Below, piece after piece: positions 35,852 to 45,730 of a stretch of DNA of 64,000 bases. The position numbers and the translations under genes were made by a program. The stretch covers positions 1,302,001 through 1,366,000 of the forward strand of contig CP120453.1 in the NCBI GenBank assembly GCA_034226945.1, in the 5' to 3' direction. The notes under the pieces were generated by a model, which was not told where the DNA came from, searched no databases, and was given only the letters and a program-made list of their open reading frames with translations. The stretch comes from Picochlorum sp. SENEW3. Taxonomy: Eukaryota. Positions within the stretch are counted from its first letter, which is position 1, and the number at the start of each line of letters is the position of its first letter.

Positions 35852-36110
35852 ATGAAATATTTATGTCGGACAGCAGATCGTGTGTGTCTGCTGCAGTATA
35901 CGAAAGGTGATTATCCTTGTACTACTCCAAGAACGGTTTGCCAAAAGGATCGCCCTTTTGCTGGGAAAAATGTTCGTCCATGCACACAAGAGACAGATTG
36001 CTCAATCAATTGCTGGAGTGATGAACGTGCTATTGATGATGGAAACAAACCTACATGCTACGATTGTCGATGTCAGACAAAAGATGGCCACTGATGTCTG
36101 TGGAGCGGAT
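35852..36110 (+). pseudogene. Truncated, frameshifted paralog of the adjacent Cys-rich repeat gene
   Basis: Shares TVCQKDRxFAGKNVRPCT and IDDGNK with 36420-37004; no signal peptide; frame broken after DGH. Confidence 0.7.
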
Positions 36111-36419
36111 TCGATCAGCTGATCATCAGCCAATATTGATGATTTGATGGGCAAAGTTGCCAGTGTTATGGATGGCACGTGTCATAAAATGGCTTGGGAT
36201 GAATGTCTCCAGATGACATAAGCGCTCCCATACGCTCTGCTCCACCATTTCAAGCTCCTGCACGACTGCACTCGATCCAGTCCCTCCATTGAGCGGGAAC
36301 TCCCAGGCTGGTGCTGCAACCCACATTACTTAACCCTATGCTCCGTGTTAGAGAACAACTTGAAAAGAAAAAATCTTTCTACCGGACGGTATCATATACA
36401 AATTTGATTCATCAGAAAA

Positions 36420-37004
36420 ATGAATATCATTCGCCGATGCGCTACACTATTCGTAGTTTTATGCGCATTTTCTGGACCTGTCCGCGGTACCTGGGAACCC
36501 TGCACGCAAAACAGCGATTGTACAGCGGAAACATGCTGGGATGATGTAAACGCCGTTGATGATGGGAACAAAGCCTCAGACTACCGCTATTTTTGTCGAG
36601 GGGCAGATGGTGTCTGTGTGTACTTCTACACAGATAATCCTGCAACACCAACGGTTTGCCAAAAGGATCGTTCTTTTGCTGGAAAAAATGTTCGTCCATG
36701 CACGGAGAACGTAGATTGTACTCCGGAAACATGCTGGAATGATGTAAACGTTATTGATGATAACAACGACGCTAGAAAAGACTATAGTTATTACTGTCGA
36801 TTCGAAGATGGCGTCTGTGAATTTCGGTATATTGGGGCTTGGTATAAACCAGTAGGTTCACGAACGGTTTGCCAAAAATACAGATCTTCTTCTTTTGAAG
36901 GGGATGCGGTGGTATCCGGTCCATCAGGCGCTGTAAACAGCGCTGGTAAATTGAGTGAAGTAGGCGGGGTTGCGATGCTCCTTGTAATGCTCCTTGTATT
37001 CTGA
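36420..37004 (+). CDS. Secreted Cys-rich tandem-repeat protein with hydrophobic C-terminal (GPI-like) tail
   Basis: Signal peptide; two repeats PCTxNxDCTxETCWxDVNxxDD..YxCRxxDGVC..TVCQK; hydrophobic tail. Confidence 0.8.
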   Translation: MNIIRRCATLFVVLCAFSGPVRGTWEPCTQNSDCTAETCWDDVNAVDDGNKASDYRYFCRGADGVCVYFYTDNPATPTVCQKDRSFAGKNVRPCTENVDCTPETCWNDVNVIDDNNDARKDYSYYCRFEDGVCEFRYIGAWYKPVGSRTVCQKYRSSSFEGDAVVSGPSGAVNSAGKLSEVGGVAMLLVMLLVF

Positions 37005-37083
37005 ATTCGTTTGAATGCGATTTACCCGGCGAAATTTAAATATTTTCCTGTGGATTTACCTAATGAATTATGAACACAGTATA

Positions 37084-37902
37084 TCACGTTTTTTTACCAA
37101 CAGCAATTTTCCGCCCAAGCAAGAGCAATGCAGATTCAATTTCAAGTTTAGGAAAACTGAATTGACCACAAATCAGCGTCCGTCCCCCTTTTAAATTCAT
37201 GACTATAACCCCTTCTCGTTGCTCTTCCTCATTCTGCTGGACATTATTCACATCAGCCACGGGGATCACAACAGGTTTCCCATTCGACCTATTATCAAAT
37301 TCAAAAATCACATAATTTGATGCAATATGAAGTTGCCCACTGAACCCAATCGTCTTTGGTGGTGTGAAAGAATTATTTGAAGCAACATATTGTTGAATCA
37401 ACTTGCAGCGAAATGATTCTAAAATTTTTTCATCCTCATCCTCAATTCCAAACCGTTCCTTCATATCCTGTGACGAAGCAGCAGCAGACACAGCCTGCCG
37501 AGATTTCGATGCATCTACCGAGTCATCCATTGATCCCCATAACGACCCAAAAAATCCTTTCACTTCATTTGACGCCCGTAATAACTTCTCCTGAGCAGCA
37601 GCAGCAGCTTCTCGAGTGACAGCTGCTGCCACAGCCGCTGCCTCTTCAAACTCTCTTCCAAATGCCTGCTGATCATCCACCTTCGTCTTCTCTACGGGTG
37701 GGTCAGTGCTGTTGGAGAGATCATTCCGGTCTTCATCAGGCTGTATTTCACCCTCACCCTCGTCCTTCGTATCCGCTGCTGCTTCCAAAGGAGGCTCCTG
37801 TTCCTCCTCTACGTTTTCTCGAGTATCCTTATCTTGTGGCTCGTCATCCTCCAAGTGCACATCCTGAAACGAATTTTGAACATCCATTTTTTCTTCCGAC
37901 AT
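37084..37902 (-). CDS. GRAM-domain protein with acidic N-terminus
   Basis: EKILESFRCKL, FSGQLHIASNYVIF, VVIPVADVNNV. Confidence 0.7.
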   Translation of the reverse strand: MSEEKMDVQNSFQDVHLEDDEPQDKDTRENVEEEQEPPLEAAADTKDEGEGEIQPDEDRNDLSNSTDPPVEKTKVDDQQAFGREFEEAAAVAAAVTREAAAAAQEKLLRASNEVKGFFGSLWGSMDDSVDASKSRQAVSAAASSQDMKERFGIEDEDEKILESFRCKLIQQYVASNNSFTPPKTIGFSGQLHIASNYVIFEFDNRSNGKPVVIPVADVNNVQQNEEEQREGVIVMNLKGGRTLICGQFSFPKLEIESALLLLGRKIAVGKKT

Positions 37903-38271
37903 CCCTAGGCTATTGATTCCACCCTCCAGAGTACAGTAGTATTAAAAACAAACTGACACAGGGTTCTTTCTTGCTTTCACAATGTTTACGCCAATATCAC
38001 CGTTTCATAGCCAAATACATGGGAAATACGATTGGTTTTTATTCATGTTGAGTCAAGTCGTAGGAAATGCAAGGCTCTTTTGCAAATCTCGTCAATAGAG
38101 GTGTACATCAGCATTTCCTATCGACGGGCACATTTGACCGAAGCCACAACAACTCCTTAATTGACCCACACATTCAAGCTGATGTGCGTCCTTTTGCCAG
38201 ACTCGAGTCCTTTCTATTGAGATTAAAAAATATTTCAAGGTTGTTAAACGCACAAGGCCTCGCTATATCTA

Positions 38272-38675
38272 ATGGAGGGACAGAGTTCAATTTTGAAATT
38301 TTTTAAACCTGTCCTTGCTGCACAACCAACCGAGAGACAAGAAGACCCTGTCCCAGACAGCAACACAAGACCGTCTCCATCTATTGAAAAAGATGAGGAG
38401 GGTGCGCAGAGCAGTCCATGCACATCAGCAGGTGTGGAGACTCGAGATGGGGAAAGCACCAGGTGTTCCTCCCCAGAGGGCGTGTGATTTCGAGAAGGAG
38501 CGGATGAGGCGCATTGAGAGGAATAGAGAGATTATGAAACAATTAGGGCTGGGTCATGGAGGTGGTGCGATGCCGAATATGGCACAGGCAATGGGGACCA
38601 AGAGGAAGAAGAAGACGCAGAGGTCTGTTGTCACAGATTGGAACAACAGGGAGAACACGGCGATGCCGTTGCGAA
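38272..38675 (+). pseudogene. 5' remnant of a gene (probably the WD40 gene at 41750), frameshifted and cut at ~38675
   Basis: MEGQSSILKFFK.. ends EGV-TGA while DFEKERMRRIERNREIMKQLGL continues in another frame; sequence then switches abruptly to an HI0933 exon. Confidence 0.6.
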
Positions 38676-38687
38676 TACCCTCTGCAG

Positions 38688-38909
38688 GTCACCGGTGATG
38701 AGGGATATCCAAAGGCAGAGGTTACTGGTGGTGGTGTGCCACTCTCAGAACTGGATTGTACGACAATGGAGTCCACAATCATGCCGAATTTATTCATCTG
38801 TGGAGAATTATGTGACATTCACGGTAGAATTGGTGGATTCAATTTCCTATTTGCATGGTGTAGCGGGAGGCTTGCAGGAATACAAGCTGCCTTGTCTTTA
38901 CAAAAATAA
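38688..38909 (+). pseudogene. Orphan last exon of an HI0933/BaiN-family flavoprotein
   Basis: Acceptor ctctgcag then KAEVTGGGV..TMES..LFICGELCDIHGRIGGFNFLFAWCSGRLAG; no upstream GxGxxG FAD-binding exons. Confidence 0.8.
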
Positions 38910-38923
38910 CTCCATGTATCTAT

Positions 38924-39702
38924 CTAATGATGTGAAAGACCAATACAATTGTTCGCACTTTCTACTTTTAAAAGACCTGATTTAATCTTCTTTTTCGATG
39001 CCGCCTTTTTGACCAACAATGCTTGTTTCAATTCTTCGCCCGGGGAAAAGACACACATGTGCTGCAAGGGGAACACATGCACCTGGTCACAGAGACGCGA
39101 CACGAGATCCTGATCATCGGCAAATACGATGTTTTTGGTATCCCGATGTGTACCCCAGTATAAATGATTCATCGATAGATCCGAAGATGCCCCTCCTCTG
39201 ATTATGATCAACTTATCAGACACCCTGTCATGAATCAATGCAAAGTAATCACCCGTCACGTTTTGAATAATTGTTTCCGTATCCAACATGAAACCAGAAG
39301 CATGCTGTGTATCACAGGCGTCCTTGTACTCTTCCAAAAGATAATCCGCATTATCCATGCCACTATAATTACTCTCAACATTCCCATACAAAAGCACCAT
39401 GAGGTGCTCATCTTCTTTAATGCTAATCTTCATGCTCAACGCATATGAAACACCTAAGAAGCCCGCAAATCCCATACTAGTATGTTCTTCAATAAATCCT
39501 CTCTGTCTCCGAGGAAGATGCTCGTAGAGAGCATCGAAAACCGAGTTCATCTGTTCCTCCTGCATCCCCAATATCCACTTCTAAACCCCATCCTACCGTA
39601 CAACACACGCAAGCACATGTCACATACCTCCTCCGGGGTAGGAGAACACTCTACACCCCGAGCATTCGGCAGCAATGCACGTGTTGCAAGTAGCGCAAGC
39701 AT
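38924..39702 (-). CDS. TSJT1/Wali7-like (DUF3700, Ntn-fold) protein
   Basis: Exon 1 MLALLA..SPTPEE with GTATGT donor, then GDYFALIHD, LYWG, IVFADD, FP, LLKVESAN. Confidence 0.7.
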
Positions 39703-40074
39703 TCTCGTGACACTACCCTCGTTCACGTTCCGAGACGAGACTCTGCACGGGTGCCGTATACACGGACACAAATAGCTTTTGGGTGACCCCGCAAATTCAG
39801 AATAATAACAGTATATGTAGCATTAACAATGAGTTCGATGCCCGCATGTGAGCGCATGAATACACATGACGTCTCTGACTTGAGTACCGTCGTCCAATGC
39901 AGGCTGACATGGCAGCTTGGGATGCCCTCTGTTCGATGACCGGTCCTTGGATTCAGCCGACCGGAGATATGACATCGCTCTCCTGACCACAAGTCATCTG
40001 TGGTATTCGACCAATGGAGTCGGATGATGCCACCGAGAGACCACATTTATCCAATCACAGTCGTTTTGATTGCC

Positions 40075-41021
40075 ATGATGCAGACAGCAATGAGCCATCG
40101 TTCCATTTTTACTTGTGCTTCCTCCACGTGTGGGATGCCTCGCCAGGCACGCCGAACGGTGTGTTTAGGGGCTCGATTGCAATCTTATACTAGCACATTG
40201 TGTAAAACATCGAGGAAAATGGCACATATGCATGGACAAAGAGGGTACGTGCCTTGGTACCTCCATAGGGACTAGGTAGCCACGGAATACGATACCAACG
40301 AGATATAAGATCAATCGAGAGCAACATGCATGTTGATGATGTGTAGGTTACATTGTGAGCGATGGATCGTCCGAGCAGGTGATGAAGATGCTGCGTTCAC
40401 TGTGGAGGAGGAGACTGTGCGTGTGTCTTCATAACACAGTGTATATAGAAAGTCACACACTCACTGTGCATACCATGTACTGCTGTGCAGATGGAAAAGA
40501 TGGAAAAATCTCTCGATAGCGTCAAGAGGAATTTCGGGACGGTGAGGACCGGAAGGGCAAGTCCTTCCATGCTGGATCGTATTGTTGTTGAGTACTATGG
40601 AGCACCAACCCCATTGCAGCAGATTGCCAATGTGACAACACCAGAGGCTTCTTTGCTTGTCATTCAACCATACGATATTAGTGCCATTCCAGACATCGAG
40701 AGGGCAATCCAGGGTTCTGATCTGGATCTCACCCCCAACAATGATGGAAAGGTCATTCGCCTGCAGGTGCCTCCACTCACTGCTGAACGCCGTAAAGAGA
40801 TGACAAAAGTGACAAGTAAGATGGGAGAGGAGGGAAAGGTGGCCGTGAGGAATATTAGACGCGATGCCATGAAGTCAATTGAGAAACTGGAAAAGGATGG
40901 TGATATCGGGGAGGATGGCAGGAAGAATTTGGAAGATGTTGTGCAGAAACTCACGGATGATTACGTCAAGCAGATTGATGCGTTGATGAAGGCCAAATCT
41001 GATGAGCTGACCAAAGTATAG
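40075..41021 (+). CDS. RRF: Chloroplast ribosome recycling factor
   Basis: Transit-peptide exon, two introns, VRTGRASPSMLD, LTPNNDGKVIRL, KVAVRNIRRDA. Confidence 0.95.
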
Positions 41022-41535
41022 TAGTAATAAGTACGATGTATACATGTTAGTTTTCATGGCCTAGGCACTTTCCCTTATCTTGGAAGAAGCTATTCACGTT
41101 GTCCACCGGAGTGTTGACAAGGACAAAACAAGCCCAAAGAGGGTTTAAAAACCTCTGATCGTACCTCGAAAACCGAACATGTTTTCCAAAATTACATCGC
41201 GCTTGTATATTATTATTGAAAGAAAAGACAAGGACACAAAAGACAAAAAGCGAAAGACAGGCTAAAACTAAAATTCAGGTTCAAAACTGCTCGAGATTTC
41301 GAAAATCCACCTGGAAAGATTCTTTCCGAAAGAAGATGGTACTCGATCCAAACCTGGATGTATCACTACTAAACATAATCATGCCATCGGCATGAGCAAA
41401 ACACGAATTTTAGATGAAGAAGTTCCACCTGAACAAGGAACACAGATCTATAGATAGCGTTATCACTCCATTGCACTATAATCCAATGTAGTTACAAGAG
41501 GAGTAACGCACTGCTATAGGCATTAGACTACCACT

Positions 41536-41746
41536 CTAATGAAGCTGCCAGACTTTTCGATAGTCTAACATATTTTTGATCGAGCAGAGTGACTTCTTCA
41601 CCTCCTCGTCGCAAGCAAGCCCGTCCAAGCCACAACCCTCTGTCTCGAACCACCACTCTGGTTTTTCCCATTGATAGTACGTCTCCAACGCCTTTCCATG
41701 CGTGTTATAATAGTTTTCGATCGCTTGTGCGAGTTTTACAGGCCCA
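41536..41746 (-). pseudogene. 3' remnant of an unidentified gene (possibly a DXD/GT32-type glycosyltransferase)
   Basis: GPVKLAQAIENYY..PEWWF..WQLH-stop; no plausible start, abuts the WD40 remnant head-to-head. Confidence 0.45.
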
Positions 41747-41749
41747 AGT

Positions 41750-42121
41750 GTGGTTAAAACAGTCATGTGGTGTCCATCGAACGAACATCTGTTGCTTTCG
41801 GCTGGAAATGATTCATTGGACATTATGGATATACGCAGTCCAACCAATGTGATGCATTCTTTCAGAGGTCATAATGATCATGGCTCTAGCGGCATCTATC
41901 AGCCAGTTTTTGTGAACAATGGTGCATCTGTTCTTACAGCTGGCTCTGGTAAATCGTCGCAGTGCCTGACGCTATTTGACGTATAAAAGGGGGAAATGAT
42001 TTCAAAAGGAGACGTTGGATGGTCTATTGGGGCATCGCATGTGATTCAGAAGGGCAATACAGAGTTCATCATCTTTTCTGGCCCTAGGAAAGTCTCATTC
42101 TTTTCTCCATGCTATGCGTGA
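41750..42121 (+). pseudogene. 3' remnant of a WD40-repeat gene with in-frame TAA
   Basis: VKTVMWCPSNEHLLLSAGND..IMDIR..FRGH; TAA at 41984-41986, after which the frame continues KGEMISKGDVGW.. to TGA 42121. Confidence 0.75.
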
Positions 42122-42188
42122 TAATTTATACGCTGTATTAAATACAAAGATGACAACTTGTAGACTTAATTAAATATTAATGTACATG

Positions 42189-43684
42189 TTACGATAGAAG
42201 GTCTGCAAAGGGGTCCTTCTTTTCAGAAGCTGCTGGTGCAGGCTGCACCTGTTGTGTGGCAACAGCAGTGTTGAAGGGATCAAAAACATCCTCGACTTTC
42301 TCCTTTGGCGGCTCTGAAAACATGGCGTTCTGATTTTGAGGAACAACGTCGTTTGGATTGGATAAACTTGCGAATATATCTTCCGGCAGTGGAGCACTCG
42401 CCTCTGTTTTCTGAGGTTGGGGAGATGTTGACGGCACATCTACAGAACTGTTTCCGTTTCCGCCAAATGGATCCCATGCTGGTTGTTGAGCAGCCTTCTC
42501 AACATGTGCCGAGTCTTGATCGCTCGTAGCAGCGGGAACATCCAGGGTGCCTAATAAATCCAAAGGATTGTCCCCAGAGGATGGCTTTTCATCAGTTCCT
42601 CCTCTGCTGGTAGTCGCTGGTGGTGCTGATGCCACAGGCATCTTGAGGCCCAAGGACGCTGCGATCTTTGGATTTGCTTTGACATCCGACAATTTTTTCT
42701 TTGGAGTCCGTTTCGATGTCTCCTCTGTCGAAGGAGAGGACAGTGCCATCTTTGCAATCCGTGCTTGTGTCGCTCTCACAGGAGAAATCTCTTCCTCCTG
42801 CCTAGTTGATGAAAAACTCTTACTGGCCATGGGAGGGGATACGTCTCTTCCTTCACTTGTCTGTCCTCCAACGGAAAATGATGTGGGATTCGTGGAAGAC
42901 TGTGAACGGAAAGACTGTGATCTGGGAGCAGAGCCCTCACCAGGTCTTGTCAATGACGATGAATGAAATCCACCACTCCGTGTGGAACTACCAAACCCAG
43001 TGGCCCCTGCCCTCATCTGACTTGCCGAAACCCCTGTGTATTTGGCTTTATTCTCAGCAGCCTTCTGTCGCTCCTCCTCGAGCCGATGTGGATTCTCAAC
43101 AAGCTCTGATATCTCAGTAGCACGATGCCTAATGTTCACTCCCTGCACATTGATAATTCTATATCGCAATATGTACTAACAAACCGTGTGAAACGAAAAT
43201 AATACACATACATGATCCTTCCCATTCGCATCCTTGTACTCAAAATGCTTGAGTGAGTTCAACACAGATGAACTATTTGCAACATCTAATGCCACTTTCT
43301 GCACAAACACATTCACCGGCAAATTGTAGTCCGTAATATAGACAGACTATGTAACAATCTATCAAGTTCACAAGAAAACCATACCTTTGGGCCATGCTTG
43401 ATCAGATATTCCAACAACAGCAATGCTTTGTAACACATTCTCCAGCGCTCCTCCTTCTCCTGCAACCGTCTTGCAATCACCCCCAGCACCTGTCGATACC
43501 CCTCTGGATCATAACAAGCCTCTGCAATCTCGGCCATTGTCTTCCCATGAGGACCCCATGTATCCATATTCGTAGCTTCCTCTACCTGAACTTCCAAGGG
43601 GCTCAGATTCATGGCATACTGCTTCACCTTGTTCGTTGCATTCCGAACAAGCCCCCTCCAATCCACAGACCTCATCTTATCCAT
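42189..43684 (-). CDS. ENTH-domain epsin-like clathrin adaptor
   Basis: VEEATNMDTWGPHG, WRMCYKALLLLEYLIKHG, G.D|QGVNIRHRA, DPF motifs, terminal DPFADLL. Confidence 0.92.
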
Positions 43685-44044
43685 CTTTGTCTTTGTTCTC
43701 TATGGTTCTGTATCGTATCTGTGAATACGAGGGCCTCGGTGGATCGACAATGAGTATTTCACTCTTCTTCTTCTTCCTTTTGCCAAAAGTCAAGCCTTTC
43801 TGGTTCTTTAAAACTATCACAGTCGTGAGAAAATCGACGTAGAAGCGAAATTGAGAATGCTCTGAAGGTCATGCGCGTCTTTCTTTCAATGACACACACT
43901 TGCCAGAGAGAGATTTTCACCGTAAATAGAACATTAGATGACCGATCCCTCTACGAGTACAACAGAATTCACGGAACCCTCGTTCATTGAAGATATAGAT
44001 TTCATAGTAAGATTTTAGAGACTCAGTATGAACCCACGTTCTCT

Positions 44045-45730
44045 ATGGTTGGTGGAAGTCAGTCTGCCCTCGTGCTGGCAGCGAGTCTGATGCGTCGACA
44101 ATGGGGACAATCTACACGACACACATTCTCTTACGAATACCAAAACATGGTTGATGTGGCGAGAAGGTTCTTTGCATCGACTACGAGTGCACCAAGGGTG
44201 GAGAATTTGTTTATTGATGGGTTGGCTGTACCATCAAAATCCAAACCAGAGACTCACATCCCAGTGTACAACCCAGCGACGCAAGAAGTGTTAAGCATGT
44301 TACCAGAGACAACTATGGATGAGTTTCATGCGGCGGTGGAGTCTTCCAAGAAGGCTTTTACGACGTGGTCTACAACGCCTGTACCGCAGAGAGCTCGAGT
44401 GATGCTCAAGTACCAGGAACTGATTCGGAGGGACATGGATAAACTTGCGATGAATATCACTCAAGAACAAGGGAAGACGTTGGAAGATGCACGTGGTGAT
44501 GTGTTTCGCGGGTTAGAAGTGGTGGAGTACTCATGTGGCATTGCAACACAATTGCTTGGGCAAGTTCAAGAGAATGTGGCACAAGGTATCGACACAATGA
44601 GTATTCGGCAACCTCTAGGAGTGACTGCGGGTATCTGTCCATTTAATTTCCCAGCCATGGTGCCTCTGTGGATGTTCCCAGTATCAATTGCAGCTGGGAA
44701 CACTATGATTCTCAAGCCGAGTGAGCATGATCCTGGGGCATGTATGCTGTTGGCAGAATTGGCGACAGAAGCTGGTTTGCCACCAGGGGTTTTGAATATT
44801 GTTCATGGAAGGCACGATGTCGTGAATGCTATTCTAGATCACCCTGATATAAAATGTGTGTCCTTTGTTGGATCGAATTCTGGAGGAAAGCATGTGTATT
44901 CCAGGGCATCTGCTCATGGGAAGCGAGTTCAGGCGAACACGGGAGCCAAGAATCATGCAGTCATCATGCCCGATGCTGATGTCGATCAGGCAGTCAATGC
45001 ACTGGTAGGGGCTGCGTTTGGAGCTGCTGGACAGCGTTGTATGGCTGTGAGTGTTGCTGTGTGTGTTGGTGGGATGACTGATGAATTTCGGAAGGCCCTT
45101 GTGGAGCGTGCAAAAGGTCTTAAAGTAACAGCTGGATGGGAGCCTGGAGCTCAGGTTGGACCTCTCATCTCAAAGGAATCAAAACAGAGGGTATGTCGCA
45201 TCATTGAGACTGCCCCAAAGCAAGGTGGCAATGTTATTCTGAATGGGAGGGATATTGTTGTAGAACAATACCCGCATGGAAATTTTGTCGGACCTACAAT
45301 CATCACCAATGTTGATTCGTCCATGGAATGTTACAATGAGGAGATATTTGGACCAGTGCTTGTATGCATGAATGTCGACTCCCTGGACGAGGCCATTTCT
45401 GTCATCAATGCAAATGAGCATGGAAATGGAACCGCAATTTTTACCTCTTCAGGCGCTATCGCGCGTCAGTTTCAAACAAAGGTTGATGTGGGTATGGTCG
45501 GGATCAATGTACCCATCCCTGTGCCTGCGGCATCATCAGGAGAATTCAGTTTTACAGGTTGGAGAGGATCCTTCTATGGTGATTTGAACATGTATGGGAA
45601 AATGGGAGTAGAATTCTTCACTCGGACAAAAACAATCACATCAAGCTGGAAACTTCCCTCAGACGGACAAGGCAAGAAAAATACTGCCTTGCCGGGCCTC
45701 AGTGGCGTGGGTGCATCGCCGCCATCATAG
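44045..45730 (+). CDS. ALDH6: Methylmalonate-semialdehyde dehydrogenase, mitochondrial
   Basis: [56 protein letters not shown]. Confidence 0.95.

What the first reader, a model, noticed from the sequence alone, without database searches (positions are those of the whole stretch)
38272..42121. A 3-kb chromosomal fragment with cut genes at both ends appears inserted into a now-dead WD40 gene
Seen: at ~38675 a gene start (..EKERMRRIERN..QLGL..PLR) jumps to an intron acceptor plus the last exon of an HI0933 flavoprotein. At ~41746 a 5'-less minus-strand ORF abuts a 5'-less WD40 tail. Between them lie apparently intact TSJT1-like and RRF genes. The outer pieces are both on the + strand. The 5' piece has a frameshift explained by a 2-bp loss in gtgt(gt)gat (EGVCDFEKER), and the 3' piece has an in-frame TAA. 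Known: an E..R..RI.RN...LGL helix begins CMR1/WDR76-like WD40 proteins. Inference: insertion of a segment copied or moved from elsewhere, with deletion of the WD40 middle. Independent decay of both remnants argues for a real event over a mis-assembly.
Basis: partly seen in the sequence, partly recalled or inferred. Interest (0 to 1): 0.7.

Follow-up and report, generated by a model that had tools for sequence, protein, structure and literature searches.

The report
Copied 3-kb segment splits WD40 gene
In a tiny green alga (Picochlorum), a 3-kb piece copied from another chromosome replaced the middle of a conserved WD40-repeat gene, killing it and leaving an extra copy of two intact genes: a clear but ordinary case of repair-mediated gene disruption and duplication.

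Summary
Window 38272-38674 and 41723-42121 encode residues 1-138 and 409-540 of one intronless 540-aa WD40 protein that is intact in Picochlorum sp. BPE23, P. renovo and other relatives (95-99% identity). The left neighbour gene lies next to the intact WD40 in BPE23 and P. renovo, so this is the native locus. The 270 missing codons are replaced by about 3,049 nt (38674-41722). This holds the last 78 codons of an HI0933-type flavoprotein, a two-exon DUF3700 gene, a three-exon ribosome recycling factor (RRF) gene, and the last 61 codons of a small 128-135-aa protein. In BPE23 these genes carry consecutive locus tags on another chromosome. Public contigs show the full-length donor HI0933 in 4 of 4 runs and the intact WD40 continuation in 2 of 4. 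The right junction is bridged in 2 runs. Corrections: there is no intron acceptor at the left junction, since that sequence is coding. The right junction is at 41722/41723, not about 41746. The frameshift is a net 11-nt loss. The CMR1/WDR76 label is unverified. This is ordinary genome evolution, so interest is low to moderate.

The parts
38272..38481 (+). WD40 gene remnant, 5' part a (residues 1-70 of the 540-aa ortholog), starting at the native ATG
   Evidence: BLASTP 69/70 to P0003. tblastn. 70/70 to P0146 and P0148.
38479..38482 (+). Frameshift site. The codons for G70 and A74 overlap by 2 nt. Orthologs have three more residues here, so the net loss is 11 nt.
   Evidence: Frames. All 9 intact relatives read PEG-(HKG/HQD/RQD/HEG)-A/E-CDFEKER. 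Inferred from proteins; no ortholog DNA was available.
38480..38674 (+). WD40 remnant, 5' part b (residues 74-138), in the +1 frame. Ends with ..AMPLR.
   Evidence: BLASTP 63/65 to P0003. tblastn.
38673..38674 (.). Left junction. WD40 codon R138 ends at 38674 and the HI0933 codon E begins at 38673. Contigs of the donor and of the intact WD40 both leave the window at 38673, so at most 1-2 nt are shared.
   Evidence: loose ends before and behind 38673.
38673..38909 (+). 3' fragment of an HI0933-like (YhiN/aminoacetone-oxidase-type) flavoprotein gene: the last 78 codons plus stop. The first ~433 codons are absent from the window.
   Evidence: Pfam PF03486 66.2 bits, profile 185-242/244. 96% to P0007/P0008 and 99% to P0150 (SENEW3).
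38924..39702 (-). DUF3700 / aluminium-induced-protein-like (TSJT1-like) gene, apparently intact. Exon 1 is 39628-39702, a 68-nt GT..AG intron is 39560-39627, and exon 2 is 38924-39559 including the stop.
   Evidence: ORF. Splice sites read. Pfam DUF3700 24.7 bits (cut-off 27). Atlas nearest cluster DUF3700, score 0.96. Gene model is my inference.
39703..40218 (.). Divergent intergenic region between the DUF3700 and RRF genes, carried along with the insert.
   Evidence: Position only. Contigs of X1 and X2 show another version diverging before 39944.
40219..41021 (+). Ribosome recycling factor gene, intact. Exons are 40219-40244, 40347-40416 and 40491-41021. It encodes 208 aa identical to P0142.
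   Evidence: Pfam RRF 223.5 bits, profile 2-163/164. tblastn 100% over exon 3, with exons 1-2 located. Exact ORF present in the collection.
41022..41535 (.). RRF 3' region and spacer up to the stop of the small-protein fragment. Public contigs diverge from the window at 41096 and 41103.
   Evidence: tables 7 and 8.
41536..41721 (-). 3' fragment of a small conserved Picochlorum gene of unknown function: the last 61 codons plus stop of 128-135. The first 74 codons are missing.
   Evidence: phmmer hit P0159, E 2.4e-19. 56/61 to P0163. Alignment. tblastn 41721-41539.
41722..41723 (.). Right junction between the small-gene fragment and the WD40 3' remnant.
   Evidence: tblastn limits 41721 and 41723. 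A contig of X2 leaves the window at 41722. Contigs of X2 (41584-43600) and X9 (41631-42198) cross it.
41723..42121 (+). WD40 remnant, 3' part (residues 409-540 plus native stop), with an in-frame TAA at 41984-41986 and five window-specific residue changes.
   Evidence: S416P, N420K, V/M431L, Q496stop, M525I.
37087..37902 (-). Left neighbour, a GRAM-domain gene. It serves as the synteny anchor showing that this is the native WD40 locus.
   Evidence: Exact protein in the collection. Its cluster holds BPE23 M9435_004401 / M9434_001160 and P. renovo 33750, each numbered next to the WD40 gene. Pfam GRAM 29.2 bits.

Best explanation
This is a copy-and-paste structural mutation in a Picochlorum genome of the SENEW3 lineage. 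A break in the intronless WD40 gene at its native locus was repaired with loss of codons 139-408 (about 810 nt). About 3,049 nt copied from a locus on another chromosome filled the gap. The copied stretch began inside the HI0933 flavoprotein gene and ended inside a small gene of unknown function. Those two genes are therefore present only as 3' stumps. The DUF3700 and RRF genes between them came across whole, with their shared upstream region. The donor locus stayed intact. The junctions are blunt or share 1-2 nt. There is no target-site duplication, no terminal repeat and no transposon gene. The likely mechanism is therefore end joining or synthesis-dependent repair from an ectopic template (a templated insertion), not transposition. 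The WD40 gene is now a pseudogene, having also acquired a net 11-nt frameshift, a stop codon and several unique substitutions. The RRF and DUF3700 copies appear to remain under purifying selection.

Shown: identity of all pieces, native position, donor gene order in a relative, existence of the uncut donor and of the intact WD40 in public data, and junction positions. Inferred: the repair mechanism, the single-step history, and the functional state of the duplicated genes.
For: - The two outer pieces match residues 1-138 and 409-540 of one 540-aa protein. tblastn with 4 WD40 and 3 HI0933 full-length relatives found no other piece of either gene in the 64-kb window.
- The left neighbour is numbered adjacent to the WD40 in both BPE23 assemblies and in P. 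renovo.
- Donor order in BPE23: HI0933 M9435_001843 (KAI8110164), RRF KAI8110166, small protein M9435_001846 (KAI8110167). The same holds for M9434_001443/_001445/_001446.
- Contig lengths of 13,878 and 13,879 nt recur for full HI0933, the RRF ORF and the full small protein. A length of 13,292 nt recurs for the left neighbour plus intact WD40.
- In one search, a loose end before 38673 in 4 of 4 runs reads ..ERIKLLTNVT, which is the upstream HI0933 coding sequence.
- A loose end behind 38673 in 2 of 4 runs (X1, X9) reads (R)RSKRHSKNS, which is the WD40 continuation.
- X2 flanks show 0 differences in 1,903 and 2,017 nt. X2 contigs inside the insert differ from the window (6 in 1,367; 8 in 543; 2 plus 1 gap in 245; 1 in 245) and have higher depth (85-123 against 59-63). 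A second copy would produce this.
- The right junction is crossed by a 12,648-nt contig of X2 (139 nt on the insert side) and a 565-nt contig of X9 (92 nt on the insert side).
- 9 of the 11 listed X2-versus-window coding differences in RRF and DUF3700 are synonymous.
- The WD40 3' remnant carries 5 changes seen in none of 9 relatives.
- There is no tRNA, and no direct or inverted repeat pairs the two ends.
Against: - The left junction is crossed by X2 and X10 contigs by only 29 letters. That is below the tool's 31-letter rule. It is what a k=31 graph gives at a repeat edge, but that is my inference.
- X2 may be the sample the window was assembled from, so it is not independent.
- Contigs diverge from the window at 41096 and 41103 in X1, X2 and X10. 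One X2 contig joins 41722 back to 41045-41103. The donor may therefore not be simply collinear over 41104-41722.
- In SENEW3 the small protein and HI0933 have accessions 10 apart (WPT11025 and WPT11035), and in P. renovo 12 apart, against 3 in BPE23.
- That the gene between HI0933 and RRF in BPE23 is the DUF3700 gene is assumed, not shown.
- X9 shows the intact WD40 continuation and an unbroken donor contig at 38673, yet also crosses the right junction. This is unexplained.
- Depth from contigs cannot give copy number.
- No donor DNA was available, so microhomology lengths are inferred.
Confidence: 0.85

Rival explanations
1. The insert is composite or arose in several steps. 38673 to about 41100 (HI0933 stump, DUF3700, RRF) was copied from one place and about 41104-41722 (spacer plus small-gene stump) from another. 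Alternatively, the donor locus was rearranged after the copy was made.
For: - Loose ends behind 41096 (X1, X2) and 41103 (X1, X2, X10).
- An X2 contig joins 41722 back to 41045, with a shorter side of 59 letters that matches 41045-41103.
- The accession gap between the small protein and HI0933 is 10 in SENEW3 and 12 in P. renovo, against 3 in BPE23.
- The small-gene stump is more diverged from the SENEW3 protein (87%) than the HI0933 stump is from its SENEW3 counterpart (99%).
Against: - BPE23 has RRF and the small protein as consecutive genes.
- The loose end behind 41096 still resembles the window's next bases (shared GGAGTGTT core). It may simply be a diverged spacer that the aligner clipped (my reading).
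- No loose end 'before' about 41104 is listed, though one row of table 7 was not shown.
Confidence: 0.25
2. The insertion is present on only one homologue of a diploid. The other homologue of the window's strain keeps an intact WD40 gene, so the gene is not lost.
For: - The SENEW3 genome paper calls the strain at least diploid (passages).
- The intact WD40 continuation is seen in X1 and X9.
- X1 contig 4 starts exactly at 38673, which suggests two predecessors there and so both states in that sample (my inference).
- The insert-to-flank depth ratio is about 1.5 in X1 and X2.
Against: - In X2, whose flanks are identical to the window, no loose end behind 38673 is listed and the flank contig runs on through 38673 to 38702.
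- The window-identical and the variant versions of RRF intron 1 have depths 56.6 and 53.5, each close to the flank depth of 59-63.
- No SENEW3-named intact WD40 appears among the 4 hits or in its 90% cluster.
- The paper reports low heterozygosity.
- Contig depth is not copy number.
Confidence: 0.15
3. Assembly chimera: the junctions do not exist in any real chromosome.
For: The insert is a near-identical repeat of another locus, which is a setting where assemblers err. X2 may be the source data.
Against: - The right junction is crossed by contigs of two runs from two studies (X2 with 139 nt, X9 with 92 nt).
- The left junction is reached by X2 and by X10, a different study whose contig has 5 differences in 574 nt. 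This is 29 letters only.
- Both WD40 remnants carry their own defects and unique substitutions.
- The insert copy differs from the other copy at many sites.
Confidence: 0.03
4. Capture and insertion by a transposable element (Helitron-, Pack-type or retroposition).
For: Gene fragments cut at both ends are typical cargo of gene-capturing elements.
Against: - No terminal inverted or direct repeats pair the ends, and there is no target-site duplication.
- No transposase, helicase or reverse transcriptase ORF is present. All four ORFs in the insert are accounted for.
- Introns, both strands and an intergenic promoter region are retained, which excludes an RNA intermediate.
- The target lost 810 nt, which transposition does not do.
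Confidence: 0.03

Closest known systems
Templated (ectopic) insertions at repaired double-strand breaks / small interchromosomal segmental duplications, as described in yeast, plants ('filler DNA') and human genomes (recalled; no paper on this was read here)
   Same: A non-mobile chromosomal stretch is copied into a break. Junctions are blunt or share 1-2 nt. The target loses sequence. The donor stays intact. There are no transposon hallmarks.
   Different: At 3 kb the insert is large for filler DNA and carries two whole genes. The mechanism is inferred from anatomy only, and a two-step history is not excluded.
Intact WD40 orthologs: Picochlorum sp. BPE23 M9435_004402 / M9434_001161 (540/539 aa), P. 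renovo Picre1 33749
   Same: 95-99% identical over residues 1-138 and 409-540. Same left neighbour gene.
   Different: The window copy lacks residues 139-408, has a net 11-nt frameshift and a TAA, and holds foreign DNA.
Donor locus in BPE23: M9435_001843 (HI0933-like), next gene, KAI8110166 (RRF), M9435_001846 (small protein)
   Same: Same genes in the same order as in the insert. RRF is 208/208 identical and the HI0933 stump is 97% identical.
   Different: In the insert the two outer genes are cut. The small-protein stump resembles the SENEW3 form (87-92%) much more than the BPE23 form (64-70%).
Cmr1 / WDR76 and DDB2-type DCAF WD40 proteins
   Same: A long non-WD40 N-terminal region followed by a C-terminal WD40 propeller, as described for Cmr1 (passage in PMC4389229). 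Atlas neighbours include DDB2 clusters at 0.93.
   Different: No tool result assigns the protein to WDR76. The nearest Atlas cluster is 'WDR32-like'. All 18 Pfam hits listed are generic propeller models below their cut-offs. The best PDB matches are G-beta and WDR61.

Membership tests
   Residues 1-70, 74-138 and 409-540 of P0003, and likewise for 8 other relatives.
   The left neighbour cluster holds M9435_004401, M9434_001160 and Picre1 33750, each numbered next to the WD40. The right neighbour was not tested.
Copy from a donor locus (segmental duplication / templated insertion) | A donor with the same gene order exists and is uncut | tested here: met
   BPE23 locus tags and accessions are consecutive. 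Upstream HI0933 coding sequence joins 38673 in contigs of 4 of 4 runs. The middle gene's identity in BPE23 is assumed.
Copy from a donor locus (segmental duplication / templated insertion) | Insert collinear with the donor over its whole length | tested here: inconclusive
   Divergence at 41096 and 41103 and a 41722-to-41045 joint. Accession gaps in SENEW3 and P. renovo. No donor DNA was available.
Transposable-element insertion | Target-site duplication, terminal repeats or element-encoded enzyme | tested here: not met
   None found at the ends. All ORFs in the insert are cellular genes.
HI0933-like flavoprotein (PF03486) | Full Rossmann/FAD-binding domain from the N-terminal GxGxxG onward | tested here: not met
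   Only profile positions 185-242 of 244 are present. Residues 1-433 of P0007 find nothing in the window. It is a stump of a family member, not a working member.
Ribosome recycling factor (PF01765) | Complete RRF domain in an open, spliceable gene | tested here: met
   223.5 bits, profile 2-163/164. 208-aa product identical to P0142.
DUF3700 / TSJT1-like (PF12481) | Score at or above Pfam's gathering cut-off | tested here: inconclusive
   Exon 2 alone scores 24.7 bits against a cut-off of 27. The Atlas nearest cluster is 99% DUF3700 at 0.96 with 169 shared features. The spliced protein was not scanned.
Cmr1 / WDR76 | Orthology to WDR76/Cmr1 (reciprocal best match or phylogeny) | not tested
   No named WDR76 or Cmr1 sequence was available to compare. 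Atlas, Pfam and PDB give only generic WD40 or DDB2/WDR32-like leads.
Cmr1 / WDR76 | Conserved N-terminal E..R..RI.RN...LGL helix | not testable with these tools
The motif is present in the window and in all 9 relatives. The passages read describe only an unstructured N-terminal region.

The most novel reading that the evidence does not exclude
The insertion is a segregating natural variant. Insertion-bearing and intact WD40 forms both occur in public samples. It knocked out a conserved DDB2/WDR76-like genome-maintenance factor in the SENEW3 lineage. That loss could contribute to the chromosome translocations and fusions reported for the strain. At the same time, the event gave a streamlined genome a second working copy of an organellar ribosome recycling factor.
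Probability: 0.08. Interest if true: 0.55.

Novelty: new member of a known kind. Interest (0 to 1): 0.3.

Why it matters
This is a clean natural example in a very compact algal genome of a double-strand break repaired by copying 3 kb from another chromosome. Both junctions are resolved to the base, the donor is identified, and both ancestral and derived states are visible in public data. It shows one event both destroying a conserved gene and duplicating two others in a lineage reported to have few gene duplications (PMC11092101, passage). For annotation, 38272-38909 and 41536-42121 should be marked as pseudogene fragments. The RRF and DUF3700 genes here are paralogous copies. The event does not reveal a new kind of biological system.

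Tried and rejected
- **Whole genome.** None is held, so the donor could not be searched in the same assembly.
- **Earlier findings.** Nothing by place or by the WD40 and HI0933 sequences.
- **Metagenome contigs.** The scan with P0007 found no relative among 581 pattern matches. The scan with alignment A1 found 2 distant loci (37% identity, contigs of 3,582 and 1,498 nt) that are of no use for synteny.
- **Exact look-up.** Five window ORFs (DUF3700 exon 2, the chimeric minus-strand ORF, the HI0933 stump ORF and both WD40 remnant ORFs) are not in the collection. The BPE23 tag of the DUF3700 gene therefore could not be obtained.
- **Supplements of PMC11092101.** One file of 1,369 characters is held and contains none of the terms. 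The gene-order tables S7/S8, which could settle the SENEW3 donor order, were not seen.
- **Intron-acceptor reading of 38675-38688.** Rejected, because the same residues are coding in full-length relatives.
- **In-frame WD40-HI0933 fusion.** Rejected. The WD40 frame runs into TGA at 38696-38698, and the HI0933 frame is offset by one base.
- **Depth as copy number or zygosity.** Not usable, because all four runs were contigs.
- **Other runs.** Nothing is claimed about expression or habitat.
- **Uncovered or thinly covered stretches in X9 and X10**. No conclusion drawn.
- **WDR76/Cmr1 label.** Pfam, PDB, the Atlas and two literature look-ups gave no confirmation.


Full report
**What is there**

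The window is from a compact, intron-poor green alga. The best named relatives of every gene examined are Picochlorum sp. BPE23, Picochlorum sp. SENEW3 and P. renovo.

- A strong, complete RRF domain at 40449-41021 (223.5 bits).
- An HI0933-like match covering only the last 58 of 244 profile positions, at 38547-38909 (66.2 bits, cut-off 50).
- A sub-threshold DUF3700 match on the minus strand at 38924-39580 (24.7 bits, cut-off 27).
- Only weak generic propeller matches for 41714-41986.
- Nothing for the two 5' pieces.
- Only a far sub-threshold match (2H-SAK, 14.4 bits against a cut-off of 27) for the minus-strand ORF 41536-41868.

**The outer pieces are one gene**

I read the 3' piece through its TAA with X and searched it among longer proteins. 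That returned 4 proteins among 630 candidates:
- A 540-aa WD40 protein of BPE23 (P0003, 95% identity over the whole query).
- Two unnamed relatives of 538 and 532 aa.
- A 477-aa P. renovo model.

P0003 also matches the 5' pieces. Residues 1-70 match 38272-38481 at 69/70, and residues 74-138 match 38480-38674 at 63/65, in the next frame.

tblastn of four such proteins places the 3' part at 41723-42118, which is residues 409-540. It finds no trace of residues 139-408 anywhere in the 64 kb.

Unspliced ORF-type predictions from public contigs have the same length (539-540 aa) as the annotated BPE23 proteins. The gene is therefore intronless, and about 810 nt of it are missing.

**This is the gene's native locus**

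The left neighbour (37087-37902, minus strand, GRAM domain) is in the collection letter for letter. Its 90% cluster holds BPE23 M9435_004401 and M9434_001160 and P. renovo 33750. The WD40 proteins are M9435_004402, M9434_001161 and 33749. The two genes are thus numbered side by side in all three annotations. A contig length of 13,292 nt recurs for an intact 540-aa WD40 and a left-neighbour protein, which suggests one contig. The right neighbour was not tested.

**What lies between**

*Left end.* Full-length HI0933-type proteins of 510-512 aa end with ..LTNVTEYPLQVTGDEGYPKAEV... The window matches them from E (38673) to the stop, at 96-99% identity. The WD40 codon for R138 ends at 38674 and the HI0933 codon for E starts at 38673. 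The junction is sharp, with at most 1-2 shared bases.

*Right end.* The minus-strand ORF matches a 128-135-aa Picochlorum protein of no known family, only from I75 onward. That is window 41721 down to the stop at 41536-41538. Identities are 56/61 to P0163, 87% to the SENEW3 protein P0164 and 71% to P0159. The rest of that ORF is the antisense of the WD40 remnant.

*Middle.* The RRF gene (exons 40219-40244, 40347-40416 and 40491-41021) encodes 208 residues identical to P0142. The DUF3700 gene reads as two exons (39628-39702 and 38924-39559) around a 68-nt GT..AG intron. This gene model is my own reading. The Atlas nearest cluster is 99% DUF3700.

**The donor**

In BPE23 the HI0933 protein is M9435_001843 (KAI8110164), the RRF is KAI8110166 and the small protein is M9435_001846 (KAI8110167). 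The second BPE23 assembly has M9434_001443, _001445 and _001446. These lie on contigs of 1.24 Mb, whereas the WD40 lies on contigs of 1.26-1.33 Mb. The order HI0933 - one gene - RRF - small protein is thus the insert's order, on a different chromosome. That the unnamed middle gene is the DUF3700 gene is an assumption.

The HI0933 stump shares residues D, C and Q with the SENEW3 protein against BPE23 and P. renovo. The small-gene stump shares its C-terminal tail with the SENEW3 form only. The copy was therefore made within the SENEW3 lineage.

**Public reads**

Of 23 runs listed for 37900-42300, 20 hold part of the stretch and 11 hold half or more of its sampled words. I laid four of them, from four studies, on 36800-43600. 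All four are contigs, so depth is not copy number.

- **Donor and intact WD40.** A contig in each of the 4 runs joins 38673 to upstream sequence that translates to ERIKLLTNVT, the uncut donor HI0933. In X1 and X9, a contig continues from 38673 into sequence that translates to (R)RSKRHSKNS, the intact WD40.
- **X2.** Its flanks are identical to the window (0 differences in 1,903 and 2,017 nt). One contig runs 36800-38702. A 12,648-nt contig runs from 41584 across the right junction.
- **X9.** A 565-nt contig (41631-42198) also crosses the right junction.
- **X10.** A contig (38129-38702, 5 differences) reaches 29 letters past the left junction, as does the X2 contig. This is under the tool's 31-letter rule. 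It is what a 31-mer graph yields where a repeat begins, but that is my inference.
- **Inside the insert.** The X2 contigs differ from the window (6 in 1,367; 8 in 543; 2 plus a gap in 245; 1 in 245) and have depths of 85-123 against 59-63 in the flanks. A second copy would produce this.
- **RRF intron 1.** X2 has a window-identical contig (depth 56.6) and a variant with indels (depth 53.5).

**Decay and constraint**

At the frameshift, all 9 intact relatives read PEG, then three residues, then A/E-CDFEKER. In the window the codons for G70 and A74 overlap by 2 nt, which is a net loss of 11 nt.

The X1 contig (38151-38565) and the X10 contig (38129-38702) cover this site without gaps, so they share this state.

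The 3' remnant has TAA for Q496 and four further residues seen in none of the 9 relatives: S416P, N420K, V/M431L and M525I. The 5' remnant has at most one such change. The small-gene stump has K-to-N and P-to-Q at positions otherwise invariant in 9 relatives.

By contrast, 9 of the 11 X2-versus-window differences listed in RRF exon 3 and DUF3700 exon 2 are synonymous. Only the 40 best-supported of 241 differences were shown. This fits continued selection on the two whole genes.

**Mechanism**

No tRNA lies nearby. No direct or inverted repeat pairs the two ends, and there is no target-site duplication. The insert holds only cellular genes, with their introns, both strands and an intergenic region. 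The target lost 810 nt while the donor survived. This anatomy fits break repair that copied or captured an ectopic chromosomal stretch. It does not fit transposition or retroposition. The mechanism is inferred.

**What remains open**

- **Collinearity with the donor.** Contigs leave the window at 41096 (X1, X2) and 41103 (X1, X2, X10), and before 39944 (X1, X2). One X2 contig at single-copy depth joins 41722 back to 41045, with a shorter side of 59 letters, which equals 41045-41103. I read that contig as the native small-gene locus, because the SENEW3 protein differs from the stump at 8 of 61 residues, clustered at 41631-41706. On that reading, a diverged copy of the 59 nt lies beyond the gene. 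This is not shown.
- **Gene order in other strains.** The small protein and HI0933 are 10 accessions apart in SENEW3 and 12 gene numbers apart in P. renovo, against 3 in BPE23. The donor region may therefore differ between strains, or the insert may be composite.
- **Zygosity.** The SENEW3 paper (abstract and passages) calls the strain at least diploid with low heterozygosity. A term search of its main text finds no 'WD40' or 'pseudogene'. The gene-order supplements were not available.
- **X9.** It shows the intact WD40 continuation and an unbroken donor contig at 38673, yet crosses the right junction. Mixed or heterozygous material at low depth is one possibility.

**Family of the lost gene**

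For P0003:
- Pfam gives 18 propeller models, all below their cut-offs.
- The best PDB matches are G-beta and WDR61.
- The nearest Atlas clusters are 'WDR32-like' at 0.97 and, lower, DDB2 at 0.93.

A long N-terminal region followed by a propeller fits the description of Cmr1 in PMC4389229 (passages). However, nothing I saw names the N-terminal helix as a family mark. The CMR1/WDR76 label stays a lead.

**Verdict**

This is a real and well-delimited event: a conserved WD40 gene at its native locus was disrupted by a 3-kb interchromosomal copy that duplicated RRF and a DUF3700 gene. It is a new instance of a known kind of mutation and of modest interest.

Noticed in passing
window 41536-41721 (minus); proteins P0159, P0163-P0171: The cut small gene belongs to a 128-135-aa family seen in Picochlorum only so far (BPE23, SENEW3, P. 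renovo, P. oklahomense), with no Pfam match. phmmer also gave weaker hits to three long proteins (1,267-2,688 aa). One of them matches in 8 stretches, so the ~50-residue IENYY..WEKPEWWF unit may be a repeat module elsewhere.
   Followed up: partly
window 39944, 41045-41103, 41096, 41103: Public contigs diverge from the window before 39944 and behind 41096 and 41103. One X2 contig joins 41722 back to 41045-41103. Summed contig depth over the RRF region (39978-41112) reaches 2-3 times the flank. A further partial copy of the RRF region, or a rearranged donor, is possible.
   Followed up: partly
proteins P0150/P0164 (SENEW3), P0155/P0170 (P. renovo), P0153/P0167 (BPE23): HI0933 and the small protein are 3 gene numbers apart in BPE23, but 10 accessions apart in SENEW3 and 12 in P. 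renovo. This hints at a structural difference between strains at the donor locus.
   Followed up: no
window 36000-37004 (+): A cysteine-rich ORF built from repeated ~66-residue modules (C..ETCWDDVN..DDGN..Y.C), visible as 198-nt direct repeats at 36498-36574 and 36696-36772 and a third copy at 36011-36061.
   Followed up: no
window 42189-43699 (minus) and 43991-45730 (+): By eye, the right neighbour looks like a two-exon epsin/ENTH-type gene convergent with the WD40 remnant. Beyond it lies a long aldehyde-dehydrogenase-like ORF of 579 aa. Neither was scanned against a family library.
   Followed up: no
window 38151-38702 in runs X1 and X10: Contigs of two other samples cover the frameshift site without gaps. 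The 11-nt loss is therefore shared by strains that differ from the window at about 0.2-0.9% in the flanks. In X1 it occurs in a sample that also holds the intact WD40 continuation.
   Followed up: partly
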